DNA of 64,000 nt, taken from the NCBI RefSeq assembly GCF_963921235.1, contig NC_086097.1:29266001-29330000 (forward strand), read 5' to 3'. The notes beneath the pieces were generated by a model. The model was not told the origin of the DNA, did no database searches, and worked only from the letters and a program-made list of their open reading frames with translations. The DNA comes from Mobula hypostoma. Lineage: Eukaryota. A program made the translations under genes and the position numbers. The stretch's first letter is position 1. Each line of letters opens with the position of its first letter. Positions 3,011 to 55,775 of this stretch are shown one piece after another.

Positions 3011-4427
3011 AACAGGTTCTTGCAGTGCTAATCCATCTACATTCCAGGGGTGTGTAGTCCAACCCACTTCCTGAAGTCAATGACCTGTTTTGCTGCCACT
3101 GAAAGAAAGGTTCTTGTCTTGACCTCAACAGCTAGACTGTCTATCTCCTTCCTGTATTTCAGCTCATCAATTTTTGATGACTGGCCCACCACTGTGGTGT
3201 GCCCTGCAAACTTCTAAATAGAGTTAGAGTTGAATCACGGGTGTGAGGAATGAGGAATAGAGCAGGGGCTGAGGACACGCTCTTGTGGGACACCAGTTCT
3301 GAACATCATCATTGAAGACATGTTGCTGCCTATCCTTACTGACGGCAAGTCTATTGCTCAAGAAGTTGCAGAGGGAGGCGCTGAGTCTAGGAGTTTGGAG
3401 ATGACAGTGGGAGGTGTAATATATAAATATTATGTGAAGAGTTTGATATATTTATGTTATTGTGAGACTTTTGGAATATTGGAAAGTTACAGCGAGAAAT
3501 TTCAAAAATTAGTCTTACAATGGGAGATTTAATATGTCAATAATATGATGAAAGATTTAAATTTCATTGTTACACTGAGAGATTAGATTATGAGGACACT
3601 CAGTCCTCGCTTATTGTCATTTAGAAATGCATGTATTAAAAAATGATACAATGTTCCTCCAGTATGATATCACAGAAACACAAGACAGACCAAGACTAAA
3701 ACTGACAAAGACCACGTAATTATAACACATAGTTACAACAGTGCAAAGCAATACCGTGATTTGATACGAGCAGACCATGGGCACGGTAAAAAAAATCTCA
3801 AAGTCCCGATAGCCCCAACATCTCATGCAGACAGTTGAAGGGAGAAACTCTCCCTGCCATGAACCTCCAGCACCGCAAACTTGCCGATGCAGCACCCTGG
3901 AAGCACCTGACCACAGCTGACTCTCAGTCCGTCATTACCATAACATTACTGAAATATTTTTCATATATTAATGTTACAGTGAGAGACTCAGTATATCGAG
4001 GATCACTTTATTCACCATATTAGGAATTTACATAATTAGGAATTTGCTGTGGTGTGCGGGCACAACATGCAACAAAAACAACTTTCAACACTTATAAAGA
4101 ATAAAGAAGTGTATAAGAATAAAGTTAGAGGTTAAAGTTTAGACATGGAATAAAAATGTGCACAAACATCAGCATATATTAACAATGTAGACAGCATTAT
4201 AAAGAAGTGTTTTAAAGTGTTTAGAGTGCAGTAAAGTGACAGGGGTAATAGTAAGGAGGGAGGGGTGAGAGGGGGCTAACTAGAATGGTTGATCAAATTA
4301 ACTGCCAGGGGAAGAAACTTCTAAGATGGTGTGCAAGTTTTGTTTTAATAGCCCTACAGCGCTTACAGAAGGGAATTTCTGGAAAAGACAGTTTGCAGGT
4401 AGGGTAGTGTCCGAATGCAGTATCAGG

Positions 4428-11837: not shown

Positions 11838-12865
11838 CTAGCGTGGATGAAGCAGTGACTGGCCGGCAGGAGGCAAAGAGTCGGAATGAAGGGAGGCTTT
11901 TCTAGTTGGCTGCTGGTGACTAGTGGTGTTCCAGAGGGGTCTGTGTTTGGACAGATCTTTTTTAAGTTATATGTCACTGATTTGAATGATGGAATTGATG
12001 AGTTTGTTTGAAAGTTTTGCAGATGATATGAAGATAGGTGGAGGGGTAGGTAGTTTGAGGAAGTAGATTAGGAGAATGGACAAAGAAATGGCTAATTTAA
12101 TACAGTGTCGGGAAATGTATGATCATGCACTTTGGTAGAAGAAATGAAAGGGTTGACTATTTTCTAAATGGAGAGAAAATACAAAAAACTGAGGTGGAAA
12201 GGGACTGGGGAGTCCTTGTGCAGGATAACCTAAAGGTTCATTTGCAGGTTGAGTCTGTGGTGAGGAAGGCAATTGCAATGTTAGCATTCATTTCAAGGGG
12301 ACTAGAATATAACAGCAAGGATGTAATGTTGAGATCTAATAAAGCACTGGTGAAGCCTCACTTGGAGTATTGTGAGCAGTTTTGGGCCCTTATCTTAGAA
12401 AGGATATGCTGAAACTGGAGAGGGTTCAAAGGAGATTCACAAAAACAGGATTAATTAGCTTGTCATATGAAGAGCGTTTGATGGCTCTGGGCTTGTATTC
12501 ACTAGAATTCAGAAGAATAAGGGATGACCTCATTGAAACCTATCGAATGGTGAAAGGCCTTGATAGAGTGGATGTGGAGAGGATGCTTCCTGTGGTGGGA
12601 GAGCGTAAGACCAGAGGACACAGCCTCAAAATACAGAGTGTCCTTTTAGAACAGAGATGAGGAGGAATTTCCTTAGCCAGAGAGTGGTGAATCTGTGGAA
12701 TTCATTGCCACAGGCAGCTGTAGAGGCCAAGTCGTTATGTATATTTAAGGCAGAGGTTGATAGATTCTTGATTGGTCAGAGCATGAAGGGATATGGGGAG
12801 AAGGCAGGAGATTGGGGCTGAGAGGAAAAATGGATCAGCCATGATGAAATGGTGGAGCAGACTGC
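11838..12865 (+). mobile_element. CR1 LINE 3' fragment (frameshifted RT C-terminus)
   Basis: VTSGVP, MHFGRRN, KALVKPHLEYCEQFW, LERVQRRFTK; homologous to the intact ORF2 at 26529-29528. Confidence 0.85.
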
Positions 12866-21045: not shown

Positions 21046-23005
21046 AGACCATAAGATATGGGAGCAGAATTAGGCCATTTGCCCATCATCTGCTCCACCA
21101 TTTCATCATGGCTGATCCATTTTTCCTCTCAGACCCAGTGTCCTGTCTTCCACCCATATCCCTTCATGCCCTGAACAATCAATAATCCATCAACCTCTGC
21201 CTTCAGTATACATAAATACTTGGCCACCACAGCTGCCTGTGGCAACGAATTCCACAGATTCACCACCATCTGGCAAAAAAATTCCTCTTCATCTCCGTTA
21301 CAAAAGGATGCCCCTCTATTCTGAGGTTGTGTCCTCTAGTCTTAAGACTCTCCCATCATTGAAAATATCCTCTCCACATCCCCAATCAAGGCCTTTCACC
21401 AATCGATAGGTTTCAATGAGGTCACCCCTCATTCTTCTGAATTCCATTTAGAAAATAGTCACCCCTTTCATTTCTTCTACTAAAGTGCATGACCATACAC
21501 TTCCTGGTACTGTATTCCATCTGCACTTCTTTACCCATTCTCCAAATCTGTCTAATCCTTCTGTACCTCTCTATTTCCTCAAAACTACCTGCTCCTCCAT
21601 CTACCTTCATATCGTCTGCAAATCTGCAACAAAGCCCTCAATTCCATCATCCAAATCATTGACATAACATAAAAAGAATCGATCCCAACACAAGACGCCC
21701 GCGGAACACCACCAGTCCCTGGCAGCCAGTCAGAAAAGGCTCTCACTATTCCTACTCTTTGCCTCCTGTAATCAGCCACTGTTTTATCCATGCTAGACTC
21801 TTTCCTGTAATACCATGGGCTCATAGCTTGTTAAGCAGCCTCATATGTGGCATCTTGTCAAAGGGCTTCTGAAAATGCAAGTGCACAACATCAGCTGATT
21901 CTCCTTTGTCTATCGTGCTTGTTATTTCTTCAAAGAATTCGAACAGATTTGTCAGGCGAGATTTTCCCTTGAGGAAACCTTGCTGACTACAGTGTATTTT
22001 ATCCTGAGCCTCCAAGTACCCCGAAACCACATCCTTAACAATTGACTCCCACATCTTCCCAAACACTGAGGTCAGACTAACTGGCCTATAATTTCCTTTC
22101 TTCTGCCTCTCTCCCTTCTTGAAGAATGGAGTTACATTTGCAATTTTTCATTTTTCTGGAACCATTCCAGAATCTAGTGATTCTTAAAAGACCATTACTA
22201 ATCCCTGATGATCTCTTCAGCCATCTCTTTCAGAACCCTGGGGTGTTCACCATCTGGTCCAGGTGATTTATCTACCTTCAAACCTTTCAGTTTTCCAAGA
22301 ACCTTCTCCATAGAAATGGTAACTTCACACACTTCTTGTCTCCTGACACCTGGAACTTCCACCATACTGCTAGTGTCTTCCATAGTGAAGAATAATCAAA
22401 ACCCTTATTCACTTCATCTGCCATTTCCTTGTCCCCCATTTCTATCATTCCAGCACAGTTCTTCAGCAGTCCAGTATCCACTCTCACCTCTTTTACACTT
22501 TATGCATCTGAAAATAACTTTTGGTAACCTCTTTAATATTATTGGCTAGCTAACTTTCATATTCCATCTTTACCTTCTTAATGACTTTTTGGTTGCCTTC
22601 TGTTGATATTTAAAAACATCTTAATCCTCTAACTTCCCACTAATTTGCTCTATTATATGCCCTCCCTTTGGCTTTTATGTTGGATTTGACTTTTCTTGTT
22701 AGCGATGATTGTGTCATTTTCCCTTTAGAATATTTCTTCCTCTTTGGGATGTATATATCCTGTGCCTACTGAACTGCTTCCAGAAATTCCAGCCATTGCT
22801 GCTCTGCCGTCATCCCTGCCAGTGTTCTTTTCCAGTCAGTTCAGGCGAACTCCTCTCTCATACTTCTGTAATTCCCTTTACTCCACTATAATACCGAAAC
22901 ATCTGACTGGCTTTTCCTTCTCAAATTTCAGGGTGAATTTGATCATATGCTCCTAGAGGCTCTCTAATCAATTCTGATTCATTGCACAATACCCAATCCA
23001 GAATT
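21046..23005 (-). mobile_element. Degraded CR1 LINE (~2 kb)
   Basis: KSPGPDGEHPRVLKE, QQGFLKGKSRLTNL, FQKPFDKMPH in broken minus frames; (TCTTATGG)-type tail near 21046-21060. Confidence 0.85.
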
Positions 23006-26420: not shown

Positions 26421-26528
26421 CCTTTGTTACATAGAAACATAGAAACATAGAAAATAGGTGCAGGAGTAGGCCATTCGGCCCTTCGAGCCTGCACCGCCAT
26501 TTATTATGATCATGGCTGATCATCCAAC

Positions 26529-29528
26529 TCAGAACCCAGCCTTCCCTCCATACCCCGTGACCCCTGTAGCCACAAGGGCCATATCTAACTTCCTTTTAAA
26601 CATAGCTAATGAACTGGCCTCAACAGTTTGCTGTGGCAGAGAATTCCACAGATTCACCACTCTCTGTGTGAAGAAGTTTTTCCTAACCTCGGTCCTAAAA
26701 GGCTTCCCCTCTATCCTCAAACTGTGACCCCTCGTTCTAGACCTCCCCAACATCGGGAACAATCTTCCCGCATCTAGCCTGTCCAATCCCTTTAGGATCT
26801 TATACGTTTCAATCAGATCCCCCCTCAATCTTCTAAATTCCAACGAGTACAAGCCCAGTTCATCCAGTCTTTCTTCATATGAAAGACCTGCCATCCCAGG
26901 AATCAATCTGGTGAACCTTCTTTGTACTCCCTCTATGGCAAGGATGTCTTTCCTCAGATTAGGGGACCAAAACTGCACACAATACTCCAGGTGTGGTCTC
27001 ACCAAGGCCTTGTACAACTGCAGTAGTACCTCCCTGCTCCTGTACTCGAATCCTCTCGCTATAAATGCCAGCATACCGTTCGCCTTTTTCACCGCCTGCT
27101 GTACCTGCATGCCCACTTTCAATGACTGGTGTATAATGACACCCAGGTCTCGTTGCACCTCCCCTTTTCCTAATCGGCCACCATTCAGATAATAATCTGT
27201 TTTCCTATTTTTGCCACCAAAGTGGATAACTTCACATTTATCCACATTAAATTGCATCTGCCATGAGTTTGCCCACTCACCCAACCTATCCAAGTCACCC
27301 TGCATCCTCTTAGCATCCTCCTCACTGCTAACACTGCCACCCAGCTTCGTGTCATCCGCAAACTTGGAGATGCTGCATTTAATTCCCTCATCCAAGTCAT
27401 TAATATATATTGTAAACAACTGGGGTCCCAGCACTGAGCCTTGCGGTACCCCACTAGTCACCGCCTGCCATTCTGAAAAGGTCCCGTTTATTCCCACTCT
27501 TTGCTTCCTGTCTGCTAACCAATTCTCCACCCACACCAATACCTTACCCCCAATACCATGTGCTTTAAGTTTGCACACTAATCTCCTGTGTGGGACCTTG
27601 TCAAAAGCCTTTTGAAAATCCAAATATACCACATCCACTGGTTCTCCCCTATCCACTCTACTAGTTACATCCTCAAAAAATTCTATGAGATTCGTCAGAC
27701 ATGATTTTCCTTTCACAAATCCATGCTGACTTTGTCCGATCATTTCACCGCTTTCCAAATGTGCTGTTATCACATCCTTGATAACTGACTCCAGCAGTTT
27801 CCCCACCACCGACGTTAGGCTAACCGGCCTATAATTCCCCGGTTTCTCTCTCCCTCCTTTTTTAAAAAGTGGGGTTACATTAGCCACCCTCCAATCCTCA
27901 GGAACTAGTCCAGAATCTAACGAGTTTTGAAAAATTATCACTAATGCATCCACTATTTCTTGGGCCACTTCCTTAAGCACTCTGGGATGCAGACCATCTG
28001 GCCCTGGGGATTTATCTGCCTTCAATCCCTTCAATTTACCTAACACCACTTCCCTACTAACATGTATTTCGCTCAGTTCCTCCATCTCACTGGACCCTCT
28101 GTCCCTTACTATTTCTGGAAGATTATTTATGTCCTCCTTAGTGAAGACAGAACCAAAGTAATTATTCAATTGGTCTGCCATGTCCTTGCTCCCCATAATC
28201 AATTCACCTGTTTCTGTTTGCAGGGGACCTACATTTGTCTTTATCAGTCTTTTCCTTTTTACATATCTATAAAAGCTTTTACAGTCCGTTTTTATGTTCT
28301 CTGCCAGTTTTCTCTCATAATCTTTTTTCCCCTTCCTAATTAAGCCCTTTGTCCTCCTCTGCTGAACTCTGAATTTCTCCCAGTCCTCAGGTGAGCCACT
28401 TTCTCTGGCTAATTTGTATGCTACTTCTTTGGAATTGATACTATCCCTAATTTCTCTTGTCAGCCACGGGTGCACTACCTTCCTTGATTTATTCTTTTGC
28501 CAAACTGGGATGAACAATTGTTGTAGTTCATCCATGCAACCTTTAAATGCCTGCCATTGCATATCCACCGTCAATCCTTGAAGTGTCATTTGCCAGTCTA
28601 TCTTAGCTAATTCATGTCTCATACCTTCAAAGTTACCCCTCTTTAAGTTCAGAACCTTTGTTTCTGAATTAACTACGTCACTCTCCATGTTAATGAAGAA
28701 TTCCACCATATTATGGTCACTCTTACCCAAGGGGCCTCTCACGACAAGATCGCTAATTAACCCTTCCTCATTGCTCAAAACCCAGTCCAGAATAGCCTGC
28801 TCTCTAGTCGGTTCCTCGACATGTTGGTTCAAAAAACCATCCCGCATACATTCCAAGAAATCCTCTTCCTCAGCACCTTTACCAATTTGGTTCACCCAGT
28901 CTACATGTAGATTGAAGTCACCCATTATAACTGCTGTTCCTTTATTGCACACATTTCTAATTTCCTGTTTAATACCATCTCCGACCTCACTACTACTGTT
29001 AGGTGGCCTGTACACAACTCCCAGCAGCGTCTTCTGCCCCTTAGTGTTACGCAGCTCTACCCATATCGATTCCACATCTTCCCGGCTTATGTCCTTCCTT
29101 TCTATTGCGTTAATCTCTTTTTTAACCAGCAACGCCACCCCACCTCCCCTTCCTTCGTGTCTATCCCTCCTGAATATTGAATATCCCTGAACGTTGAGCT
29201 CCCATCCCTGGTCACCCTGGAGCCATGTCTCTGTGATCCCAACTATATCATAATCATTAATAACAATCTGCACTTTCAATTCATCCACCTTATTACGAAT
29301 GCTCCTTGCATTGACACATAAAGCCTTCAGGCGCTCTTTTACAACTCTCTTAGCCCTTTTTAATGCTTGCCCTGGATTTGTCGGCCTGCCACTTTTACTT
29401 TTCCCCTTTGTACTTTTTGCTTCTACGCTCACTTTACACTCCTCTGTCTCTCTGCACTGGTTCCCATCCCTCTGTTGTGAACTAACCTCCTCACACCTAG
29501 CCGCTTTAATTTGATTCCCACCCCCCAA
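26529..29528 (-). CDS. CR1 ORF2: APE endonuclease plus reverse transcriptase (999 codons from TTG; first ATG at codon 202)
   Basis: APE motifs NARS, ITETW, YRPP, GDFN, SDH; RT motifs NYRPVSLTS, LDFQKAFD, GVPQGSVLGP, FADD. Confidence 0.97.
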   Translation of the reverse strand: MGGGNQIKAARCEEVSSQQRDGNQCRETEECKVSVEAKSTKGKSKSGRPTNPGQALKRAKRVVKERLKALCVNARSIRNKVDELKVQIVINDYDIVGITETWLQGDQGWELNVQGYSIFRRDRHEGRGGGVALLVKKEINAIERKDISREDVESIWVELRNTKGQKTLLGVVYRPPNSSSEVGDGIKQEIRNVCNKGTAVIMGDFNLHVDWVNQIGKGAEEEDFLECMRDGFLNQHVEEPTREQAILDWVLSNEEGLISDLVVRGPLGKSDHNMVEFFINMESDVVNSETKVLNLKRGNFEGMRHELAKIDWQMTLQGLTVDMQWQAFKGCMDELQQLFIPVWQKNKSRKVVHPWLTREIRDSINSKEVAYKLARESGSPEDWEKFRVQQRRTKGLIRKGKKDYERKLAENIKTDCKSFYRYVKRKRLIKTNVGPLQTETGELIMGSKDMADQLNNYFGSVFTKEDINNLPEIVRDRGSSEMEELSEIHVSREVVLGKLKGLKADKSPGPDGLHPRVLKEVAQEIVDALVIIFQNSLDSGLVPEDWRVANVTPLFKKGGREKPGNYRPVSLTSVVGKLLESVIKDVITAHLESGEMIGQSQHGFVKGKSCLTNLIEFFEDVTSRVDRGEPVDVVYLDFQKAFDKVPHRRLVCKLKAHGIGGKVLVWVENWLADRKQRVGINGTFSEWQAVTSGVPQGSVLGPQLFTIYINDLDEGIKCSISKFADDTKLGGSVSSEEDAKRMQGDLDRLGEWANSWQMQFNVDKCEVIHFGGKNRKTDYYLNGGRLGKGEVQRDLGVIIHQSLKVGMQVQQAVKKANGMLAFIARGFEYRSREVLLQLYKALVRPHLEYCVQFWSPNLRKDILAIEGVQRRFTRLIPGMAGLSYEERLDELGLYSLEFRRLRGDLIETYKILKGLDRLDAGRLFPMLGRSRTRGHSLRIEGKPFRTEVRKNFFTQRVVNLWNSLPQQTVEASSLAMFKRKLDMALVATGVTGYGGKAGF

Positions 29529-29533
29529 CCATT

Positions 29534-30469
29534 CTAGTTTAAAGTCACCTCAGTAGCCCCCGCTAATCTCCCTGCCAGGATATTGGTCCCCCTAGGATTT
29601 AAGTGTAACCCGTCCTTTTTGTACAGGTCACACCTACGCCAAAAGAGGTCCCAATGATCCAAAAACTTGAATCCCTGCCCCCTGCTCCAATCCCTCAGCC
29701 ACGCATTTATCCTCCACCTCATCGCATTCCTACTCTCACTGTCGCGTGGCACAGGCAGTAATCCCGAGATTACTACCTTTGCGGTCCTTTTTCTCAACTC
29801 CCTTCCTAGCTCCCTATATTCTTCTTTCAGGACCTCATCCCTTTTCCTACCTATGTCATTGGTACCTATATGTACCAGGACCTCTGGCTCTTCACCCTCC
29901 CACTTCAGGATATCTTGGACACGATCAGAAATATCCCGGACCCTGGCACCAGGGAGGCAAACTACCATCCGAGTCTCTGGACTGCGTCCACAGAATCGCC
30001 TATCTGACCCCCTTACTATCGAGTCCCCTATCACAACGGCCCTCCTCTTCCTTGCCCTACCCTTCTGAGCTACAGGGCCAGACTCTGTGCCGGAGGCAGG
30101 GCCACTGTCGCTTCCCCCGGGTAAGCTGTCCCCCCCAACAGTACTCAAACAGGAGTACCTGTTGTTAAGGGGCACAGCCGCCGGGGTACTCCTCATCACC
30201 TGCCTTTTCCCCTTCCCTCTCCTAACCGTGACCCACTTGTCTGCCTCCCGTGGCCCCGGCGTGACCACCTGCCTTCCACTCCTCTCTATCACCTCCTCGC
30301 TCTCCCTGACCAGACGAAGGTCATCGAGCTGCAGCTCCAGTTCCGTAACGCGGTCCCTTAGGAGCTGCATCTCGATGCACTTGGCGCAGATGTAGACGTC
30401 CGGGAGGCTTGGAGACTCCAGGGCCTCCCACATCCGACACCGAGAACAGCAAACTGCCCTCACAGTCAT
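29534..30469 (-). CDS. CR1 ORF1: zinc-finger/leucine zipper plus SGNH (GDSL) esterase domain, 311 aa from ATG at 30469
   Basis: CSRC...CAKC, heptad LRDRVTELELQLDDL, GDS, GTND and DGLH blocks. Confidence 0.93.
   Translation of the reverse strand: MTVRAVCCSRCRMWEALESPSLPDVYICAKCIEMQLLRDRVTELELQLDDLRLVRESEEVIERSGRQVVTPGPREADKWVTVRRGKGKRQVMRSTPAAVPLNNRYSCLSTVGGDSLPGGSDSGPASGTESGPVAQKGRARKRRAVVIGDSIVRGSDRRFCGRSPETRMVVCLPGARVRDISDRVQDILKWEGEEPEVLVHIGTNDIGRKRDEVLKEEYRELGRELRKRTAKVVISGLLPVPRDSESRNAMRWRINAWLRDWSRGQGFKFLDHWDLFWRRCDLYKKDGLHLNPRGTNILAGRLAGATEVTLN
29537..29543 (-). other. Candidate -1 programmed ribosomal frameshift heptamer U_UUA_AAC
   Basis: ORF1 ends acT TTA AAC TAG; ORF2 is in the -1 frame and is open only from 29549 (TGA at 29552-29550). 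Confidence 0.7.
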
Positions 30470-30631
30470 AATGCCCCTCTCCTCAAATAGCAACAGAAAA
30501 TGAATGTCAAACCTTCCTCGCCTCGCCCGCTTCCGCCTAAGCCCGTTGAGCCGAAGCCCTTAAGTCTTCACTCTGCTCCCGGCTCACTCCGCCGCCCGCA
30601 AACTACGCTGCCCGCTCTATGAGGCTTTGTT

Positions 30632-31239
30632 CCTTTTAAATCTGCCGCGCTGCACTGCCCGACGTCACACGCCTGCGCAGTCCCGCCTCTCAGAAAGCCG
30701 TTGGAGAAAAAAAAATAACGAAAATTTCAAAAATCTCTTTCTCGGCACTCCCACTCAGACTCTCAGACTCCTTCTTCGAATCAAATCCGAAGCAGGATGT
30801 CTGCCCTTTTAAATCTGCCGCGCTGCACTGCCCGACGTCACACGCCTGCGCAGTCCCGCCTCTCAGAAAGCCGTTGGAGAAAAAAAAATAACGAAAATTT
30901 CAAAAATCTCTTTCTCGGCACTCCCACTCAGACTCTCAGACTCCTTCTTCGAATCAAATCCGAAGCAGGATGTCTGCCCTTTTAAATCTGCCGCGCTGCA
31001 CTGCCCGACGTCACACGCCTGCGCAGTCCCGCCTCTCAGAAAGCCGTTGGAGAAAAAAAAATAACGAAAATTTCAAAAATCTCTTTCTCGGCACTCCCAC
31101 TCAGACTCTCAGACTCCTTCTTCGAATCAAATCCGAAGCAGGATGTCTGCCCTTTTAAATCTGCCACGCTGCACTGCCCGACGTCACACGCCTGCGCAGT
31201 CCCGCCTCTCAGAAAGCCGTTGGAGAAAAAAAAATAACG
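30632..31239 (-). promoter_or_regulatory. ~3.5 tandem 173-bp CpG-rich 5' monomers, putative internal promoter array
   Basis: Units start at 30632, 30805, 30978, 31151; one substitution noticed (31166); each carries, on minus, GAGGCGGG, TGCGCAGGCGTG, TGACGTC and ATTTAAAAG. Confidence 0.85.
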
Positions 31240-33482
31240 TCGCGGTTGCCGTCACACCTAGAGGGAGAAAAGTGGGCAGTCAGCAAGCGACTGCCCTTGT
31301 TCGTGTCTCAGAGTCAGATTCAGATTAGTTTGTTGTCATGTAGGATTCAAGATTCAAATTTATTTATCACTGATCATCTTTGTTCGCTGTGTCCTGCTGA
31401 GGGGTTTCAGCCCGAAATGTTGACTGTTTTTCTTTTCCATAGATGTTGCCTGGCCTGCTGAGTTCCTCCAGCATTTTGTGCGTGTTGTTTGTTTGCCATA
31501 TACATTTGCATGTACTAGGAATTTGCTTTTGGTAAGGGCATGACATTCAACAAAAAACAGAACTACCACTCCCTTTATGTTTTTAAACTCTCGCACCATT
31601 CTCTGTAAACTCCAGAGACAGTTGTGTGTGAAAATCTCAGGAGGTTACCAGTTTCTGAGATACTCAAACCACCCCATCTGGCACCAACAATCATTTCACA
31701 GTCAAAGTCACTTAGATCACATTTCTTCCCCATTCTGATGTTTGGCCTGAACAGCAGATGAGCCCCTTGACCATGTCTGCATGCTTTTATGAAAAAGGAA
31801 ATGCTAAGATGATAATAAGGGGGTAGGTTTAAGAGTCCAAGAATGTGGCCAGATATTCTAATGAAGTATAGCTGCTGGCATCGCCTACTTCATGATTTCA
31901 TCAACATGTTGACCCCAGGATATTCTGGTCCCTCGAACAGGGCACAGGACATTCTGAAAGGGGAGAGAATATGCTATAGGTTGTGCTCGACTACGGTTCT
32001 AACATAGAAGACAAGAATAACACAACATACTGTAGGAGATATAAAGACAATGTAGGAGATTGTATTTCTTTGTTTGGTGAATTTATTTAGAGCTACAGTG
32101 TGGAATAGGTCCGTCTGGCCCTATGAGCCACACTGCCCAGCAACCCGGACAACCCCAGATTTAACCCTAATCTAATCACGGGATGACTTACAACGACCAA
32201 TTAATCTACCCGGTACATCTTTGGACTGCGGCAGGAAACCAGAGCACCCAGGGAGAACCCCACGCATTCCACCAGGGGGACATACAAACTCCTTACAACG
32301 GACGCCGAGACTGAACTCTGAACTCCGACGCCCTGAGCTGCAATAGCCCTGCTAACCACGACACTACCGTGGCACCTGTGAATGCCTGCAAGAAAGTGAA
32401 TCGCAGGGTAGCATATGGTGGCAATTTGCTTTGAACTTTGAAGGTCCTACAGAGAGAGTTTGTGGAGTTAGGCAGGAAGTTAAAAAGCAGGATATCAAGG
32501 GTTGTAATTTTGGGTGTACTTTTTGTGCCATGTGCTGGTAAGGTAAGAAGTGGTGAGATATTACATTTAAATGTGGAATTGAAACTGGAGTTAGTTTATT
32601 ACTGTTGCATGTACCTAGGGACACTGTAAACCCTAGTTTTGCATGCCATCCTCACAGATTATTGCAAACGTAAATATATTGAGGTAGTACAAGGGGAAAC
32701 AATGAGAGAATGCAGAATATAGTGTTACCGTCACAGAGGAAGGGCAGTGCAGGGAGAGGGGAGAGGGGAGAGTGTCTGGAGTGGGATGGGGCTGCTCTCG
32801 AGCCTGGTGTCTCTTCTCCCAGAACATACTACAGACCCTGCCCTCCCCTCCAGAAGCTGCTGGACAAGGCTTCCCTGGTCCAGTTGTTCTGATCAGGCAG
32901 CCAAAGAGTGACCCCAGATACAGACCATAAGACAAAGGAGCAGAATTAGGCCACTTGGCCCATCATATCTGCTTCTCCATTCCATCATGGTTGATTTATT
33001 ATTCCCCTCAACCCCATTCTCATGCCTTCTCCCAATAACCATTAATGCCCTTACAGATCAGAAACCTAACATCTCCCATTTTAAATACACCTTGGCCTCC
33101 AGAGTCATTTGTGGGCATAAATTCCACAGATTCACCACCCTCTGGCTAAAGAAATTCCTCCTCAACCCTGATCTGAAGGGGCATCCTTGTATTCTGATAG
33201 TGGCTGCAGAAACATATCAGAAACATCCTCTCCTCACCCGCTTTTCAATATTTCATAAGCTTCAGTGAAATCCCCCCTCATTCTTCTGAGCTCCAGCAAG
33301 AACAGGTTCAGAGCTATCAAATGCTCCTCACAGTTAACCTTTTGATTTCCCGAGATCATTCTCTTGAAAATTCTTTGGACCCTCTCCAACACCAGCACAT
33401 TAGGTAAGAGGTCCAACACTGCTCACAATATTCCAAGTGTGGTCTGACCAATACCCTAGAATGCCTCAGCATTACATCCTTG

Positions 33483-35789: not shown

Positions 35790-36680
35790 AGATAGCGTTG
35801 AGGTGTGGTCGGAGGGTAGTGTTGAGGTGCCGTCGGACGGTAGGGTTGAGGTGCGGTCGGACGGTAGGGTTGAGGTGTGGCTGGAGGGTAGCTCTGAGGT
35901 GCAGTTGGAGGGTAGCGTTGAAGTTCAGTCAGAGGGTAGCGTTAAGGTGTGGTCGGAGGGTAGTGTTGAGGTGCCGTCGGACGGTAGGGTTGAGGTGTGG
36001 CTGGAGGGTAGCTCTGAGGTGCGGTCGGAGGGTAGCGTTGAAGTTCAGTCGGAGGGTAGTGTTAAGGTGCGGTCAGAGGGTAGCGTTAAGGTGCGGTCGG
36101 AGGGTAGTGTTGAGGTGCCGTTGGACGGTAGGGTTAAGGTGCAGTCGGAGGGTAGTGTTGAGGTGTGGTCAGAGGGTAGCATTAAGGTGCGGTTGGAGGG
36201 TAGCTTTGAGGTTCAGTCAGAGGGTAGTGTTAAGGTGCGGTTGGAGGGTAGCGTTAAGGTGCAGTCGGAGGGTAATGTTGAGGTGCTGTCGGACGGTAGG
36301 GTTGAGATGCGGTCGGAGGGTAGCGTTAAGGTGCGGTCGGAGGGTAGCGTTAAGCTGCGGTCGGACCATAGGGTTGAGGTGCGGTCGGACCGTAGGGTTG
36401 AGGTGCGGTCAGAGGGTATCGTTAAGGTACGGTCGGAGGGTAGTGTTAAGATGCGGTCAGAGGGTAGCGTTAGGGTGCAGTCGGATGGTAGGGTTGAGGT
36501 GCGGTCAGAGGGTAGTGTTAAGGTGCGGTCGAAGGGTAGCATTAAGGTGTGGCCGGGGGAAGGGTAGCATTAATGTACGTTGGAGGGTAGTGTTAGGGTG
36601 CAATTGGAGGGCAGGATTAAGGTGTGGATGGAGGGCAGGTTTAAAAGGTGTGGTCAGTGGATGGTGTTAAGGTGTGGTTA
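35790..36680. repeat. 24-bp minisatellite (GGAGGGTAGCGTTAAGGTGCGGTC), ~35 copies
   Basis: Direct reading; 8-aa periodic ORFs. Confidence 0.95.
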
Positions 36681-38119: not shown

Positions 38120-40185
38120 ACAGATATATTCCAAATAAGAAGAAATTTTCACAGGGAAGAAGGACACTACCATGGCTGACAAGTGAAGTCAGAGCCAAAG
38201 TAAAAGCAAAAGAGAGGGCACACAAGGAAGCCAAAGCCAGTGGGAAGATAAGAGGATTGGGAAGCTTATAAAAACTTGCAGAAGGAAACTAAGATGGTCA
38301 TCAGGAAGGAAAAGATGAATTAACAGAGGAAGTTGGCGACTAATATCAAAGAAGATACTAAAAGCTTTTTTTTAAGTACATAAAGGGTAAAAGAGAGTCA
38401 AGGGTAGATATAGGACCAATATAAAATGATGCTGGAGATATTGTAATGAGAGATGCAGAGATGGCAGAGGAGCTGAAAGTGTATTTTGCATCAGTCTTCA
38501 CAGTGGAAGATATCTCCAGTATACCAGACATTCAAGAGTGTCAGGGAAGTGAAGTTTGTACAGTGAAAATTATGACTGAGAAGGTGCACAGGAAGCTTAA
38601 TGGTCTGAGGGTGGATAAATCTCCTGGACCTGATGGAATGCACGCTCGGGTTCTGAAGGAAGTAGCTGGAGAGATTGCAGAGGCATTAACAATGATCTTT
38701 CAAGAATTGATAGATTCTGGCATTTTACCAGATGACTGGAAAATTGCGAATGTTACTCTACTATTTAAGAAGGATGGGAGGCAGCAGAAAGGAAACTATA
38801 GACCTGTTAGCCTGACATCAATGGTTGGGAAGTTGTTGGAATCGATTGTTAGGGATGAGATTACGGAGTGCCTGGAGGCACATGACAAGATAGGCCAAAG
38901 CCAGCATGGTTTCCTGAAAGGAAACTCCTGCCTGACAGACCTACTGCAATCCTTTGAGGAAATTACAAGCAGGGTAGACAAAGGAGATTCAGTAGACGTG
39001 GTATACTTGGATTTTCAGAAGGCCTTTGACAAGGTGCCACACATGAGGTTGCTTAGCAAGATAAGATCCCATGGAATTACAGGGAAGATACTAGCTTGGG
39101 TGGGGCATTGGCTAGTCAGCAGAAAACAGAGAGTGGGAATAAAGGGATCCTATTCTGACTGGCTGCCAGTTACCAGTGGAGTTCCACAGGGGTCAGTATT
39201 GGGACCGCTGCTCTTTATGATGTATGTCAATGATTTGGATTACTGTATTAATGGATTTGTGGCTAAGCTTGTCGATGATACAAAGATAGGTGGAGGAGCG
39301 GGTAGTGTTGAGGAAACAGAGAGCCTGCAGAGAAACTTAGATAGTTTAGGGAAATTAGTGGCAAATGAAATACAATGCTGAAAAGTGTATGGTCATGCAC
39401 TTTGGTGGAAGAAATAAACGGGCAGACTATTATTTAGATGGGGAGAGAATTCAAAATGCAGAGATGCAAAGGGACTTGGGAGTCCTTGTGCAAGATACCC
39501 TAAAGTTTAACCTCCAAGTTGAGTCGATGGTGAAGAAGGCAAACGCAATGCTGGCATTCATTTCTAGAGGTATAGAATATAAGAGCAGGAATGTGATGTT
39601 GAGGCTCCATAAGGCACACATGAGACCACACTTGGAGTATTGTGTGCAGTTTTGGGCTGCTTATTTTAGAAAGGATATCCTGACATTGGAAAGGGTTCAG
39701 AGAAGATTCACGAGAATGATTCCAGGAATGAAAGGGTTACCATATGAGGAACGTCTGGCAGCTATGGGCTGTATTCCCTGGAGTTCAGGAGAATGAGGGG
39801 GGATCTCATAGAAACATTCAGAATGTTAAAAGGCCTGAACAGATTAGATATGGCAAAGTTATTTCCCATGGTAGGGGATTCTAGCACGACTTCAGGATTG
39901 AAAGACATCCTTTTAGAACTGAGATGTGGAGAAATTACTTTAGTCAGAGGGCAGTAAATCTGTGGAATTTGTTGCCACAAGCGGCTGTGGAGGCTAAGTC
40001 ACTGCGTGTATTTAAGATAGAGATAGATAGGTTCTTGATTAGCCAGGGCATCAAAGGGTATGAGGTGAAAGCAGGGGAGTGGGGATGATTAGAAGAATTG
40101 GATCAGTCCATGATTGAATGGCGGAGCAGACTCGATGGGCCAAATGGCCTACTTCTGCTCCTATATCTTATGGTCTTACGGTCAT
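38120..40185 (+). mobile_element. CR1 3' ~2-kb copy with a largely readable RT (ORFs 38446-39381, 39365-39796)
   Basis: GPDGMH, NYRPVSLTS, LDFQKAFD, GVPQGSVLGP; frameshifts; TCTTATGG tail. Confidence 0.92.
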
Positions 40186-44724: not shown

Positions 44725-45264
44725 CTTGCCTTGCCTTGTGCCCTAAACTCCTGGTGGAGTGGTCAGGGCGCCGTCATGACAAGCTTTGCACCAATCTGTT
44801 CCATCTGTCGCGGTTGTGTGCCAGAGCCTGGGTCACTGCAAATGTTTTCCCTGTCCATTCTTTAATGTTGTCCATCCATCTTTTCCTCTGTCTGCCTCTC
44901 CTTCTTTTCCCCTCCACAGTTCCTTGTGGAACGGTCTTTGCAAGGCCACTGGATCTTGTTACGTGGCCGTTCCATCTCAGCTTTCTTTTCTTCACCGTTG
45001 TGAGAAGGTCTTCATGGGGGCCAGTGTGGTGCTGGATGGTCTTACGGACCTGCTTGTTTGTGATGTGGTCCAAGTATGAGATGCCCAAGATGTTGTGATA
45101 GCATCTCATTTCCAATGCCTGTATCGTCCTCTGTAGCTCTGCTGTGAGGGTCCATGTCTCACATGCGTACAGGAAGATGGAGAATACCAACGCACGCAGG
45201 AGTCTGATCCTGTACTTCATGGTGATGTTGCTGTCCCTCCATATTGTCTTGAGTTTGGATAGTG
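44725..45264 (-). mobile_element. 5'-truncated RTE-clade LINE with an uninterrupted C-terminal frame
   Basis: LYACETWTL, EMRCY..ILGISY, RKLRWNGHVTR, GRQRKRWMDNI; (CAAGG)n tail. Confidence 0.9.
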
Positions 45265-46808
45265 CAGAAAAACTATGCATAGATTAAAGAGGGATTTGCA
45301 AAATTTGTCACATGTAGATCGAAACAGAGTTAAATGTGTCAGTGACCAACACAATCAAAGCAACACACACAAAATGCTGGAGGAACCCACAGATCAGGCA
45401 GCACCTACAGAGAGGAATAAACATCTGACACCCTTCATCGGGACTGGAAAGGCAAGAGGAACATCAAAGTTCGTACCAAATTTATTACCAAAGTACATAA
45501 ACGTCACCATATACTGCCCTGAGATTCACTTCTTTGTGGTCGTTCACAGTAAGTAGAAAGAAACACAATAGAATCAATGAAAAATAGCACGACAGAGATG
45601 GGCAGACAACCCGTGTGCAAAAGACAACAAACTGTGCAAGCACAAAAACAAATAAACAAATAAATAAATAAGCAATAATAAGTATCGAGAATACGAGTTG
45701 TAGAGTTCTTAAAAGTAAGTCCATAGGTTGTGGTGAATTCGGTATTGAAGTGAGTGAAATTATTCCCTCTGGTTCAAGAGCTTGATGGTTGAGAAGTAAT
45801 AACTGTTCCTGAACCTGGTAATGTGGGACCTGAGGCTCCTGTACCTCCTTCCTGATGGCAGCAGCAAGAAGAGAGCACGACCTGGATGGTCATGGGGTCT
45901 TTGATGATGGATGCTACTTTTCAGCAATGGTGTTCCTTGGAAATGTGCTCTTTGAAGGGGAGGGCTTTACCTGTGATAGTCTGGGCTGTATCTATTACAT
46001 TTTGTACAGTTTTCCTTCAAGGGCATTGGTGTTCCCATACCAGGCCAAGATGCAACCAGTCAGTATACTCTCCAGTGTGTATCTACGCCAAAATTTTGTT
46101 GATGTTTTAGACAACAAACCAAATCTGTGCAAACTTCTGAGAAAGTAGAGGTGCTAAGAAGCTAGATTAAGAAGGTAGGGAAGGGAGGAGACGAGCTGGT
46201 AGGTGAGGGGGAAGATGGATGGTGAGGGAAATGAGAGGCTGGGAGGCGACAGTACGAGGATGTCCTGGGGTCAGCTCACAAGTGTCGCCATGCTTCCAGA
46301 GGCAATATAGAATGCCCACAACATACATCTTTGAATGTGGGAGGAAACCGCAGCACCCAGAGGAAACCTGCATGGTCATGGGGAGAACGTACAAATTCCT
46401 TACAGAAAGTGGCAAAAATTGAACTCTGACCTTCTGATTGCTGGTGCTGTAAAGAGTTACTCTAGCTGCTATGCTACTGTACTGCCCTTATTGGATAGCA
46501 GCAGAGGCTTGAAGGGCTGAATGGTCTCCTGCTTTCACTGCTTGTTTTCTAGTAACCATCTGATGATGGTTCCTGAGAATAATGGTTCCTCAGCAACCTC
46601 TCAGTTCCTGCCCTGCCAAGCCTCAAAGAATTCTCCGTGTTTTGATGAGATCACCTCTCATTCCTCTAAACTCCAGAGATTACAAGCACAGTCTGCTCAC
46701 AGGCCACCTCTCCCAGCCCGGGAAATGAGTGCAGCCACCATGACCCCACGTATCCAAGGGTCTGCTCACACGGGCTGAGTCCCTTCGGAAGGAAGAAGGG
46801 TGGCTTAC

Positions 46809-50850: not shown

Positions 50851-53590
50851 AATATGTCAGACTCACAGTGAGGGATGTGGGGTGTGTCGGTGTTACAGTG
50901 AGGGATGTGGGGTGTGTCGGTGTTACAGTGAGGGATGTGGGGTGTGTCAGTGTCACAGTGAGGGATGTGGGGTGTGTCGGTGTTACAGTGAGGGATGTGG
51001 GGTGTGTCGGTGTTACAGTGAGGGATGTGGGGTGTGTCGGTGTTACAGTGAGGGGTGTGGGGTGTGTCAGTGTCACAGTGAGGGGTGTGGGGTGTGTCAG
51101 TGTCACAGTGAGGGGTGTGGGGTGTGTCGGTGTTACAGTGAGGGGTGTGGGGTGTGTCAGTGTCACAGTGAGGGGTGTGGGGTGTCTCGGTGTCACAGTG
51201 AGGGGTGTGGGGTGTGTCGGTGTCACAGTGAGGGGTGTGGGGTGTGTCAGTGTTAGTGAGGGGTGTGGGGTGTCCGTGTTACAGTGAGGGATGTGGGGTG
51301 TGTCGGTGTCACAGTGAGGGGTGTGGGGTGTCCGTGTTACAGTGAGGGGTGTGGGACGTGTCAGTGTCACAGTGAGGGGTGTGGGGTGTGTCGGTGTCAC
51401 AGTGAGGGGTGTGGGGTGTGTCGGTGTCACAGTGAGGGGTGTAGAGTGTTTCAGTGTTACAGTGAGGGGTGTGGGGTGTGTCAGTGTTACAGTGAGGGGG
51501 TGTGGGGTGTGTCAGACTCACAGTGAGGGGTGTGGGGTGTGTGTGAGTCACAATGAGGGATGTGGGGTGTGTCAGTGTTAGTGAGGGGTGTGGGGTGTGT
51601 CGGTGTCACAGTGAGGGGTGTGGGGTGTGTCGGTGTCACAGTGAGGGGTGTGGGGTGTGTCAGTGTTAGTGAGGGGTGTGGGGTGTCCGTGTCACAGTGA
51701 GGGGTGTGGGGTGTGTCGGTGTCACAGTGAGGGGTGTGGGGTGTGTCGGTGTCACAGTGAGGGGTGTGGAGTGTTTCAGTGTTACAGTGAGGGGTGTGGG
51801 GTGTGTCAGTGTTACAGTGAGGGGGTGTGGGGTGTGTCAGACTCACAGTGAGGGGTGTGGGGTGTGTGTGAGTCACAATGAGGGATGTGGGGTGTGTCGG
51901 TGTCACAGTGAGGGGTGAGAGGTGTGTCAGTGTTACAGTGAGGGGTGTGGGGTGTGTCGGTGTCACAGTGAGCGGTGTGGGGTGTGTCAGTGTTACAGTG
52001 AGGGGTGTGGGGCGTGTCAGTGTTACAGTGAGGGTTGTGGGGCGTATCAGTGTTACAGTGAGGGGTGTGGGGTGTCTCGGTGTTACAGTGAGGGGTGTGG
52101 GGTGTGTCGGAGTCACAGTGAGGGGTGAGAGGTGTGTCAGTGTTACAGTGAGGGGTGTGGGGTGTGTCGGAGTCACAGTGAGGGGTGAGGGGTGTGTCAG
52201 TGTTACAGTGAGGGGTGTGGGGTGTGTCAGTGTCACAGTGAGGGATGTGGGGTGTGTCGGTGTCACAGTGAGGGGTGTGGGGTGTGTCAGTGTTACAGTG
52301 AGGGGTGTGGGACGTGTCAGTGTCACAGTGAGGGATGTGGGGTGTGTCGGTGTCACAGTGAGGGGTGTGGGGTGTGTCAGTGTTACAGTGAGGGGTGTGG
52401 GACGTGTCAGTGTCACAGTGAGCGGTGTGGGGTGTGTCGGTGTCACAGTGAGCGGTGTGGGACGTGTCAGTATCACAGTGAGGGGTGTGGGGTGTATCAG
52501 TGTTACAGTGAGGGGTGTGGGGTGTGTCGGAGTCACAGTGAGGGGTGATGGGTGTGTCAGTGTTACAGTGAGGAGTGTGGGGTGTGTCGGTGTTACAGTG
52601 AGCGGTGTGGGGTGTGTCAGTGTCACAGTGAGGGGTGTGGGGCATATCAGTGTTAGTGAGGGGTGTGAGGTGTGAGGTGTTTCGGTGTTACAGTGAGGGA
52701 TGTGGGTGTGTCAGTGTCACAGTGAGCGGTGTGGGGTGTGTCAGTGTTACAGTGAGGGGTGTGGGGTGTGTCAGTGTCACAGTGAGGGGTGTGGGGCGTA
52801 TCAGTGTTACAGTGAGGGGTGTGAGGTGTTTCGGTGTTACAGTGAGGGGTGTGGGGTGTGTCAGTGTCACAGTGAGGGGTGTGGGGCGTATCAGTGTTAC
52901 AGTGAGGGGTGTGAGGTGTGAGGTGTTACAGTGAGGGATGTGGGGTGTGTCAGTGTTACAGTGAGGGGTGTGAGGTGTGAGGTGTTTCGGTGTTACAGTG
53001 AGGGATGTGGGGTGTGTCAGTGTCACAGTGAGGGATGTGGGGTGTGTCGGTGTCACAGTGAGCGGTGTGGGGTGTGTCAGTGTCACAGTGAGGGGTGTGG
53101 GGCGTATCAGTGTTACAGTGAGGGGTGTGAGGTGTTTCGGTGTTACAGTGAGGGGTGTGGGGTGTGTCAGTGTCACAGTGAGGGGTGTGGGGCGTATCAG
53201 TGTTACAGTGAGGGGTGTGAGGTGTGAGGTGTTACAGTGAGGGATGTGGGGTGTGTCAGTGTTACAGTGAGGGGTGTGAGGTGTGAGGTGTTTCGGTGTT
53301 ACAGTGAGGGATGTGGGGTGTGTCAGTGTCACAGTGAGGGATGTGGGGTGTGTCGGTGTCACAGTGAGCGGTGTGGGGTGTGTCAGTGTCACAGTGAGGG
53401 GTGTGGGGCGTATCAGTGTTACAGTGAGGGGTGTGAGGTGTTTCGGTGTTACAGTGAGGGATGTGGGGTGTGTCAGTGTTACAGTGAGGGGTGTGAGGTG
53501 TGAGGTGTTTCGGTGTTACAGTGAGGATGTGGGGTGTGTCAGTGTCACAGTGAGGGGTGTAGAGTGTTTCGGTGTTACAGTGAGGTGTGT
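50851..53590. repeat. 30-bp G-rich minisatellite (TGTTACAGTGAGGGGTGTGGGGTGTGTCAG), ~90 copies, with higher-order duplications
   Basis: Direct reading; variant blocks recur at 325-bp (51511/51836) and 306-bp (52931/53237) spacing. Confidence 0.97.
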
Positions 53591-54934: not shown

Positions 54935-55775
54935 GCTTTCTGTGTCCTGGGACAGCACAAAGGGGGCTTCACTCTGTGTCTGACCCTGGGTGTGTGTGAA
55001 TGGACAGAGAGTGTGATGGGTTGGTGTAAAGGAAGCTTCACTTTGTGTCTGACTCTGGGAACGTGCGATGAGATGGTGTAGAAGGAGCTTCACTTTATTT
55101 GACTCCATGAGCGAATGACAGGTTGGTGTGGAGGGAGCCTCACTCTGTGTCTGACCCCTGGATTGTGTGATGAGACAGTTTGGAGGGAGCATCACTGTAT
55201 CTGATCCCTGGCGTGTCTGATGGGACAGGGTGGAGGGAGCTTCACTCTGTGTCTGATCCCTGGAGTGTGTGATGGGATTGTGTGGAGGGAGATTCACTCT
55301 GTGTTTGACTCTGGGAGTGTGTGATGGGACAGTGTAGAGGGAGCTTCACTCTCTGTCTGATCCCTGGCGTGCATGATGGGACAGTGTAGAGGGAGCTTCA
55401 CTCTGTGTTTGACTCTGGGAGTGCGTGATGGGACAGTGTAGAGGGAGCTTCACTCTGTGTTTGACTCTGGGAGTGCGTGATGGGACAGTGTAGAGGGAGC
55501 TTCACTCTGTGTTTGACTCTGGGAGTGTGTGATGGGACAGTGTAGAGGGAGCTTCACTTTGTGTCTGATCCCTGGCGTGCGTGATGGGACAGTGTAGAGG
55601 GAGCTTCACTCTGTGTTTGACTCTGGGAGTGTGTGATGGGACAGTGTAGAGGGAGCTTCACTTTGTGTCTGATCCCTGGCGTGCGTGATGGGACAGTGTA
55701 GAGGGAGCTTCACTCTGTGTTTGACTTTGGGAGTGTGTGCTGGGACAATTCTGAGGAACATATTCTATATCTAAT
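54935..55775. repeat. 52-bp satellite (GGGACAGTGTAGAGGGAGCTTCACTCTGTGTTTGACTCTGGGAGTGTGTGAT), ~15 copies
   Basis: ACAGTG recurs at 55329, 55381, 55433; two interspersed variants. Confidence 0.95.

What the first reader, a model, noticed from the sequence alone, without database searches (positions are those of the whole stretch)
30632..31239. CR1 with a tandem monomer promoter array reminiscent of mouse L1
Seen: about 3.5 near-identical 173-bp CpG-rich units. In transcript direction each ends with GC-box-like GAGGCGGG, NRF1-like TGCGCAGGCGTG, CRE-like TGACGTC and TATA-like ATTTAAAAG within about 55 nt. Known: mouse L1 uses ~200-bp monomers with additive promoter strength. Inference: each unit is an upstream-type Pol II promoter that fires into the next unit, so every retrotransposition loses one promoter and the array must be replenished by duplication. 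Near identity and retained CpGs imply a very recent, possibly active copy.
Basis: partly seen in the sequence, partly recalled or inferred. Interest (0 to 1): 0.7.

Follow-up and report, generated by a model that had tools for sequence, protein, structure and literature searches.

The report
Ray CR1 with tandem TATA promoters
An intact jumping gene in a ray carries a stack of short repeats at its front end, each most likely a promoter that starts transcription in the next repeat, so that the element loses at least one promoter every time it copies itself; stacked front ends are known from mouse LINE-1, but this TATA-driven version seems undescribed.

Summary
Observation confirmed: three identical 173-bp units plus an 89-bp partial (one mismatch) head an intact CR1 LINE on the minus strand (esterase ORF1, 98% identical to a Mobula hypostoma protein; endonuclease/RT ORF2). 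The unit-to-unit junction appears in contigs of 4 of 4 runs from three organisms. It is therefore a family trait, though the exact unit count is unverified. The promoter reading gains indirect support. The NRF1-like/CRE/TATA-like block recurs in published stingray and sawfish CR1 consensuses, once with a canonical TATA box. Seven of eight block-bearing stingray consensuses begin 28-33 nt past the TATA box, and an unrelated catshark family begins 34 nt past its own (read by eye). No start site was measured. This copy's own 5' end is out of phase, and how units are replenished is inference. Tandem 5' units are in print for mouse L1 and for ORF1-less CR1-group elements. I found no TATA-positioned promoter stack for an ORF1-bearing CR1 in ten searches. 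This scan earlier noted a phased-monomer LINE in another genome and the CR1 frameshift junction in this one. Verdict: new variant of a known kind.

The parts
30632..31239 (-). 5' tandem array: three identical 173-bp units and an 89-bp partial unit; holds four copies of the promoter-like block
   Evidence: junction also in runs X1, X6, X8, X13
30633..30689 (-). Innermost promoter-like block: GC box 30689, NRF1-like 30679, CRE-like 30667, TATA-like 30641-30633; offsets -80, -70, -58 and -31 to the predicted start
   Evidence: motif names are recalled; block conserved in stingray and sawfish consensuses
30806..30862 (-). Second promoter-like block; predicted start about 30782, the phase at which family 5' ends fall
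   Evidence: X6 contigs end at 30780/30781; consensus starts map to 30780-30785 (by eye)
30979..31035 (-). Third promoter-like block; predicted start about 30955
31152..31208 (-). Outermost promoter-like block, in the partial unit (one G>A change in transcript sense at 31166, between CRE and TATA); predicted start about 31128, whose transcript would carry three blocks
   Evidence: start site inferred
30470..30631 (-). Non-repeated tether (5' UTR) between array and ORF1; predicted start of the innermost promoter about 30609; no ATG on the sense strand from 31301 to the ORF1 start
   Evidence: similar tether in HypSab_CR1-6a
29534..30469 (-). ORF1, 311 aa: N-terminal Cys pairs (CxxC-type), coiled-coil-like stretch (read from the alignment) and SGNH/GDSL esterase
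   Evidence: Pfam PF13472 E 3e-16; 98% identical to P0001; alignment A1
29537..29543 (-). U_UUA_AAC heptamer directly before the ORF1 stop; candidate -1 ribosomal frameshift into ORF2
26529..29549 (-). ORF2, 1006 codons open, in the -1 frame, overlapping ORF1 by 16 nt: APE endonuclease + reverse transcriptase; first Met only at codon 209
26429..26528 (-). 3' UTR with predicted stem-loops and 8-bp microsatellite tail (26429-26457)
31240..31296 (.). 57 nt between the array and a candidate target-site duplication; unlike the unit, CpG-rich, with a 9-bp hairpin; origin unresolved (extra 5' nucleotides or flank)
31297..31301 (.). Candidate 5-bp target-site duplication TTGTT (partner 26424-26428); weak, and another TTTGTT lies about 30 nt further out
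   Evidence: chance of the 5-mer in a 100-nt window 0.10

Best explanation
This is a young, intact, full-length canonical-type CR1 LINE of a ray whose 5' end is a stack of promoter units (shown: array, ORFs, family-wide junction). Each unit ends in an upstream-type RNA polymerase II promoter (GC box, NRF1-like, CRE, TATA-like) that starts transcription about 30 nt past its TATA box, that is, inside the next unit (inferred from motif conservation and from the phase of family 5' ends). The promoter that fires lies upstream of its own start, so the RNA and the new copy lack it: a copy with n blocks yields daughters with at most n-1 (follows by geometry if the start site is right). The stack is the element's answer to promoter loss. 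Units are topped up and kept alike within an array by duplication, either through homology-guided template switching or slippage of the reverse transcriptase at the RNA 5' end, or through unequal exchange at source loci (inferred, not tested). This copy was cut inside its fourth unit on insertion but keeps four blocks.
For: Junction in 4 of 4 runs laid, three organisms. In the most distant organism (X13) summed contig depth stays at 29,876-58,379 over the motif block (30628-30699) and falls to 26-3,864 over the rest of the unit (depth is no copy number). The block recurs in 8 of 19 HypSab CR1 consensuses and in sawfish PriPec_CR1-5, -6a, -9; the CRE is a perfect TGACGTCA in HypSab_CR1-15 and PriPec_CR1-5, -9. 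HypSab_CR1-12 shows two tandem units with canonical TATA boxes and begins 29 nt past the first T. HypSab_CR1-18, -17, -1, -5, -6a and -15 begin at positions matching window 30785-30780, 28-33 nt past the T at 30813. ScyCan_CR1-11b, unrelated in sequence, begins 34 nt past TATAAATA of its own repeat. All of these were counted by eye on the first 400 nt. Two X6 contigs leave the element at 30781 and one listed piece at 30780, possibly one of the same two. No sense ATG in unit plus tether (309 of 10,000 shuffles). Units are identical within the array, while family variants reach 12-25% of depth at 30652, 30696 and 30735 in X1.
Against: No raw RNA reads, CAGE or RACE: all runs were contigs, and table 6 was empty. 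This copy's own 5' end (31239) is 62 nt short of the phase position. Consensus ends mark where alignments of copies stop after automated extension and curation, not start sites, and the seven stingray families fall into about four related groups. Counter or unclear cases: HypSab_CR1-9 could not be mapped; HypSab_CR1-2 and PriPec_CR1-9 begin about 17-22 nt past a TATA-like word; the tandem units of AciRut_CR1-1 and RhiBiv_CR1-3/-4 do not begin at TATA+30. The window's box is TTTAAAAG, one letter off the recalled TATA consensus. 858 loose ends were not shown, and none of those shown for the DNA runs lies at 30780-30785. None of 49 distant relatives (23-55% identity, mostly fragments) had a comparable 5' array.
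Confidence: 0.75

Rival explanations
1. The units are promoters of the mouse-L1 type: TATA-less and internal, with the start set by elements downstream of it (YY1-like), so that a unit is copied together with the sequence that drives it and nothing need be lost per cycle.
For: Mouse Tf 5' ends cluster near a putative YY1 motif (PMC9022269 Discussion). HypSab_CR1-12, -5 and -6a carry a GCCATTTT word in the unit body (YY1 likeness recalled).
Against: The window's unit has no GCCAT word (sequence), yet its relatives share the same 5' phase. The phase sits at the canonical distance from a TATA word, in an unrelated catshark family too.
Confidence: 0.12
2. The array is real and heritable but is a neutral by-product of slippage at the 5' end; transcription comes from the tether or from host read-through, and the motifs are incidental.
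For: Motif test was post hoc; many published consensuses show a single unit or none; the X6 signal has no strand and may be DNA or read-through.
Against: Selective conservation of the block between stingray, sawfish and this ray while the spacer diverges; high CpG content; phased 5' ends.
Confidence: 0.07
3. Promoters fire as in the best explanation, but arrays are not rebuilt during retrotransposition: a few master loci with long arrays, or with a host promoter upstream, supply nearly all copies and daughters simply decay in unit number. This changes only the replenishment step and overlaps with the best explanation.
For: Mouse arrays average about 3 monomers but reach 50 (PMC7778262); nothing here shows a gain of units.
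Against: The layout has persisted across stingray, sawfish and catshark families with different unit sequences, so some duplication process must recur over evolutionary time.
Confidence: 0.4
4. Assembly artefact or one-off local duplication after insertion.
For: Three units are letter-identical; no long read spanning the locus was seen.
Against: The junction is present in two further organisms, in diverged form in one, and a two-unit consensus is published for a stingray family. Only the exact count stays open.
Confidence: 0.03

Closest known systems
Mouse and rat L1 monomer promoters (L1Md A, Tf, Gf; PMC9022269 passages and Discussion, PMC5381506 passages, PMC7778262 passages)
   Same: Tandem CpG-rich units of about 200 bp joined to ORF1 by a tether; variable unit number; 5' ends cluster at one phase of the unit; modularity read as insurance against promoter loss (Loeb 1986 as cited in PMC7778262, not read).
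   Different: L1 clade, not CR1; described as lacking TATA boxes, with a YY1 motif near the 5' ends and broad start sites. Here the 5' phase lies about 30 nt past a TATA-type word and the activator motifs lie wholly upstream of the predicted start. No sequence relationship was tested.
CR1-group elements with 5' repeating subunits (Stuart et al. 2026, PMC13343379, Fig. 4 legend)
   Same: 1 to 5 subunits of 100-500 bp near the 5' UTR of vertebrate CR1-group LINEs.
   Different: Stated there for some ORF1-less elements; this one carries an esterase ORF1. The main text has no occurrence of 'promoter', 'tandem' or 'monomer'.
Stingray CR1 consensuses HypSab_CR1-6a, -5 and -12 (Table S2 of PMC13343379, first 400 nt seen)
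   Same: Same motif block, similar tether and ORF1 start; -12 shows two tandem units; -12 has 208 of 839 copies with intact ORF2.
   Different: Unit body differs in sequence and length (about 168 bp in -12); -6a and -5 are given with one unit; no promoter annotation.
HER1 LINE of sharks and rays (Ogiwara 1999; seen only as a table row and a reference in PMC3747384)
   Same: LINE of elasmobranchs; its placement in the CR1 clade is recalled, not from a call.
   Different: No sequence comparison was possible; identity with HER1 is untested.
Drosophila HeT-A (promoter arrangement recalled; the search gave no paper on it)
   Same: A promoter at the 3' end of one repeat drives the repeat downstream.
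   Different: There the repeats are whole elements in telomeric arrays; here they are 173-bp units within one element.

Membership tests
Canonical CR1 LINE (vertebrate) | ORF2 with APE endonuclease and reverse transcriptase | tested here: met
   Pfam PF03372 and PF00078 above cut-off; FADD at 730
Canonical CR1 LINE (vertebrate) | Esterase-type ORF1 | tested here: met
   PF13472 E 3e-16; feature as stated in PMC13343379
Canonical CR1 LINE (vertebrate) | 3' microsatellite tail rather than poly(A), with 3' stem-loop | tested here: met
   8-bp repeat 26429-26457; predicted stem-loops (no shuffle control); feature partly recalled
Canonical CR1 LINE (vertebrate) | RT phylogeny places it in the CR1 rather than the L2 clade | not tested
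   No tree built; assignment rests on by-eye likeness of the 5' region and ORF1 start to consensuses labelled LINE/CR1
Canonical CR1 LINE (vertebrate) | Short (3-5 bp) target-site duplication | tested here: inconclusive
   TTGTT at 26424-26428 and 31297-31301, chance 0.10, with 57 unexplained nt inside; expected length from PMC4245944
Monomer-type LINE promoter (as in mouse L1) | Tandem CpG-rich units plus tether upstream of ORF1 | tested here: met
Monomer-type LINE promoter (as in mouse L1) | Array is a family trait | tested here: met
   junction in 4 of 4 runs laid; two-unit stingray consensus
Monomer-type LINE promoter (as in mouse L1) | 5' ends of copies cluster at one phase of the unit | tested here: inconclusive
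   7 of 8 block-bearing stingray consensuses and 2-3 X6 contigs in phase; this copy out of phase; no genome-wide count
Monomer-type LINE promoter (as in mouse L1) | TATA-less, YY1-associated start | tested here: not met
   TATA-type word 28-34 nt before the 5' phase; no GCCAT word in this unit; also an L1-clade feature, so this works like, but is not, a mouse-type monomer
Monomer-type LINE promoter (as in mouse L1) | Promoter activity of units, rising with unit number | not testable with these tools
   needs reporter assays
Pol III or ncRNA-derived 5' unit | tRNA or Rfam family match in the unit | tested here: not met
   no tRNA; no Rfam match in the array at E up to 1; nine-T run on the sense strand

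The most novel reading that the evidence does not exclude
ORF1-bearing CR1 LINEs of cartilaginous fishes use ordinary upstream TATA promoters that are spent, at least one per round of retrotransposition, and are regenerated during reverse transcription by a homology-guided jump from the RNA 5' end back to the same phase of an inner unit. This would be an LTR-like strand-transfer solution to promoter loss in a non-LTR element, with unit number acting as a generation counter, re-evolved with different unit sequences in rays and sharks.
Probability: 0.3. Interest if true: 0.75.

Novelty: new variant of a known kind. Interest (0 to 1): 0.5.

Why it matters
LINEs are generally said to need internal promoters, because an upstream promoter is not copied into the RNA. 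CR1 makes up 22.6-24% of the stingray, skate and sawfish genomes (Table S4 of PMC13343379), yet I found no account of how it is transcribed in the ten searches run. A stack of TATA promoters with a sharp start would make the old question from mouse L1 (how monomer arrays are lost and regained) directly countable. It predicts that full-length copies begin at one base of the unit, that unit number falls along parent-daughter chains, and that gains leave a recognisable junction. It would also mean that many compact CpG-rich promoters are scattered through ray genomes.

Tried and rejected
No whole genome is held, so unit numbers and 5' ends could not be counted genome-wide. No second copy of the unit or of the 5' region lies in the window. 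Metagenome scan: 49 distant relatives (23-55% identity). TRF and blastn found no comparable 5' array or match in them; only L035 had a repeat of period above 30 upstream of the match (72 bp, 74% matches). Viral contigs: no ORF1 relative; the one hit to a unit motif, L050, is GC-rich bacterial-type coding DNA and a chance match. The idea that the tether is a decayed unit looked good under lenient scoring (0 of 300 shuffles) but failed under stricter scoring with dinucleotide shuffles (993 of 1000 reached the score): rejected. The 57-nt head does not resemble the unit (110 and 139 of 300 shuffles). It has no other copy in the window, and of three words from it only one hit the published consensuses, in an eagle CR1 (only the first 400 nt of each row are held). 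A tRNA or Rfam origin of the unit was not found. Depth was not used as copy number. The C>T change at 30660 that makes a perfect CRE in 48% of X13 depth may equally be CpG decay and is not counted as support. Literature searches for a CR1 promoter array and for a CR1 frameshift returned no paper that describes either. The library lacks most subscription journals, where older CR1 papers stand, and Repbase entries were not seen. The PDF supplement of PMC13343379 was not read, and consensus rows are cut at 400 letters.

Full report
Observation. TRF reports 30632-31239, period 173, 3.5 copies. Three whole units are letter-identical and the 89-bp partial unit differs at one base, 31166. CpG observed/expected is 1.25 in the array, 0.57 in ORF1, 0.40 in ORF2 and 0.33 in the window. 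The four motifs are on the minus strand in every unit, including the partial one, so the copy has four motif blocks. With recalled consensus patterns, the combination arose in 0 of 20,000 dinucleotide shuffles and nowhere else in the window; that test is post hoc.

The element. The array heads an intact LINE on the minus strand: a 162-bp tether, ORF1 (30469-29534, 311 aa, GDSL/SGNH esterase), ORF2 (29549-26529, 1006 open codons, endonuclease and RT), a short 3' UTR and an 8-bp-repeat tail. ORF1 is 98% identical to a protein annotated in Mobula hypostoma and has relatives across rays, sharks and chimaera, so the host is a ray of that kinship. Esterase ORF1 plus this ORF2 is the layout that Stuart et al. 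2026 give for canonical vertebrate CR1 (PMC13343379; abstract, passages, part 1 of 3 of Results, one Methods section and supplement rows seen). I built no RT tree. There is no ATG on the sense strand between 31301 and the ORF1 start; in unit plus tether that happens in 309 of 10,000 shuffles. A 5-bp target-site duplication (26424-26428 and 31297-31301) is possible but weak (chance 0.10). It would enclose 57 nt that resemble neither the unit nor anything else in the window. Extra 5' nucleotides are common in a zebrafish L2-clade LINE, and CR1 duplications peak near 3-5 bp (PMC4245944, passages).

Is the array a family trait? No genome is held, so I laid 4 of the 23 runs listed on one unit plus tether and ORF1 start. 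All four are contigs. The joint 30804->30632 'goes back 173' stands in X1 (DNA, organism A), X6 (RNA by guess, organism A) and X8 (DNA, organism B). X13 (organism C) has a diverged junction of 34 letters that match the window's unit end at 28 of 34 (counted by eye). In X6 the junction has depth 903, close to the 935 of a contig identical to the ORF1 start; if X6 is RNA, transcripts run across the junction, but strand and nature are unknown. In X13 the motif block keeps depth 29,876-58,379 while the rest of the unit falls to 26-3,864, which fits conservation of the block; the tool warns that depth is no copy number. The array therefore exists in reads of three organisms, while the count of 3.5 at this locus is unverified.

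Is the block a promoter, and where does it fire? A TATA box with its first T at 30813 predicts a start near 30782 (31 nt, recalled canonical distance). Table S2 of PMC13343379 lists consensus sequences, of which the first 400 letters are readable; I compared them by eye only. Of 19 stingray (HypSab) CR1 consensuses, 8 carry the block; the other 11 begin in the tether or the ORFs or lack it. HypSab_CR1-12 shows two tandem units of about 168 bp, each ending in a canonical TATA box at the place of the window's TTTAAAAG, and its first letter lies 29 nt past the first T. HypSab_CR1-18, -17 and -1 begin at letters that align to window 30785, 30782 and 30781 (22 of 27 identical for -18), and -5, -6a and -15 at about 30780 with looser alignment: 28-33 nt past the TATA T. 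HypSab_CR1-9 could not be mapped. That is 7 of 8, in about four related groups. In X6, two contigs leave the element at 30781 and one listed piece ends at 30780, possibly one of the two. A catshark family unrelated in sequence, ScyCan_CR1-11b, repeats its 5' unit and begins 34 nt past TATAAATA. Sawfish families keep the NRF1-like, CRE and TTTAAAAAG words, with a perfect CRE in two of three. Against this: consensus ends come from automated extension and curation and are not start sites. HypSab_CR1-2 and PriPec_CR1-9 begin about 17-22 nt past a TATA-like word, and tandem units in sturgeon and caecilian consensuses are not in this phase. This copy ends at 31239, 62 nt short of phase. 858 loose ends were hidden, and no raw RNA reads were available.

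How it most likely works. Each unit ends in GC box (-80), NRF1-like (-70), CRE-like (-58) and TATA-like (-31) words relative to a start inside the next unit (factor names recalled, binding untested). The promoter that fires is not in its own transcript, so this four-block copy can give daughters with at most three blocks, and a one-block copy gives promoterless daughters. That step follows from geometry once the start is granted. Units within this array are identical while family variants reach 12-25% of depth at three unit positions in X1, which points to recent duplication or homogenisation within arrays. Whether this happens during reverse transcription, by unequal exchange, or only at rare master loci is not shown; I give the reverse-transcription route about 0.3 and the master-locus view about 0.4. 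Overall confidence in the upstream-promoter stack is 0.75; mouse-type internal promoter 0.12; neutral by-product 0.07; artefact 0.03.

Comparison with what is known. Mouse L1 has about 200-bp monomers and a tether (PMC5381506, passages). Its 5' ends cluster at one phase near a putative YY1 motif, and monomer effects are additive, synergistic or non-linear by subfamily (PMC9022269, passages and whole Discussion). The modular promoter has long been read as protection against truncation, and L1 promoters are described as lacking TATA boxes (PMC7778262, passages; Loeb 1986 not read). Whether YY1 sets the start of Tf monomers is stated to be open (PMC11602158, passages). For the CR1 group, 1-5 subunits of 100-500 bp near the 5' UTR are reported in some ORF1-less elements, with no mention of promoters in the main text. 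So the layout is known. What I did not find in searches is such an array in an ORF1-bearing CR1 read as TATA-directed upstream promoters. Older subscription papers and Repbase notes were outside reach, and the array is already present, unannotated, in a published consensus.

Side finding. ORF2 has no Met before codon 209, past the first endonuclease motifs, lies in the -1 frame and overlaps ORF1 at U_UUA_AAC just before the stop. 49 of 74 ORF1 relatives end in Leu-Asn. Of the 49 metagenome loci, 29 had an ORF1 match reaching residue 285; 4 had no stop within the locus and were dropped; 7 of the remaining 25 have TTTAAAC before the stop. Of the 8 with an ORF2 match, all 8 have it in the -1 frame, 5 with TTTAAAC, one with GGGAAAC, one with GTTAAAC and one with neither. 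Three of the 8 have a Met at codon 5 of the -1 frame, so reinitiation is possible there. A -1 programmed frameshift is the likely route to ORF2 in this copy.

Verdict. A real, family-wide, probably functional promoter stack on a young intact CR1: a new variant of a known kind, interest 0.5.

Noticed in passing
window 29549-29534 (- strand); loci L001, L003-L006, L008-L010, L015: ORF1 ends on a U_UUA_AAC heptamer with ORF2 in the -1 frame and no early Met; the heptamer and a G-rich run just downstream are kept in relatives at about 30-39% identity, one using G_GGA_AAC instead. Candidate -1 programmed frameshift.
   Followed up: partly
window 31240-31296: 57-nt CpG-rich stretch with a 9-bp hairpin and a pyrimidine-tract-AG word (splice-acceptor-like on the minus strand) between the array and a candidate target-site duplication at 31297-31301; the duplication's outer edge coincides with the predicted start phase (31301). 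Unexplained.
   Followed up: partly
Table S2 of PMC13343379 (AciRut_CR1-1, RhiBiv_CR1-3/-4, SquAca_CR1-15b, ScyCan_CR1-11b, HypSab_CR1-12): Tandem 5' units are visible in CR1 consensuses of about 4.2-4.5 kb from sturgeon, caecilian, dogfish, catshark and stingray, although the paper's legend names them only for ORF1-less elements.
   Followed up: partly
Table S2 of PMC13343379, ray and shark CR1 tethers; window 30470-30631: Many relatives have GGTAAG/GGTGAG splice-donor-like words in the tether; the window's sense strand from 31301 to the ORF1 start has none of three such words.
   Followed up: no
protein P0021: A 59%-identical ORF1 relative is filed as an SGNH/GDSL hydrolase of Pseudomonas aeruginosa on a 4-kb contig; probably elasmobranch DNA contaminating a bacterial assembly.
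   Followed up: no
window 38425-40172, 11843-12748, 21221-22296, 59656-60030: Older, broken CR1-type copies at about 65-68% identity to this element, none with the 5' region.
   Followed up: no
window 57191-58720 (-), 44774-45283 (-): Further LINE remnants with long open frames (509 aa L2-like RT, 169 aa RTE-like end; labels recalled from the look of the translation).
   Followed up: no
window 35793-36556, 50865-53590, 55007-55747, 1644-2031: Minisatellites of period 24, 30, 52 and 14; the 24-bp array is open in two frames for about 260-300 codons.
   Followed up: no
window 31391-31490 and at least ten other places: A roughly 95-bp SINE-like repeat at 79-90% identity flanks the element's 5' side and recurs through the window; likeness to the HE1 SINE is recalled, not tested.
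   Followed up: no
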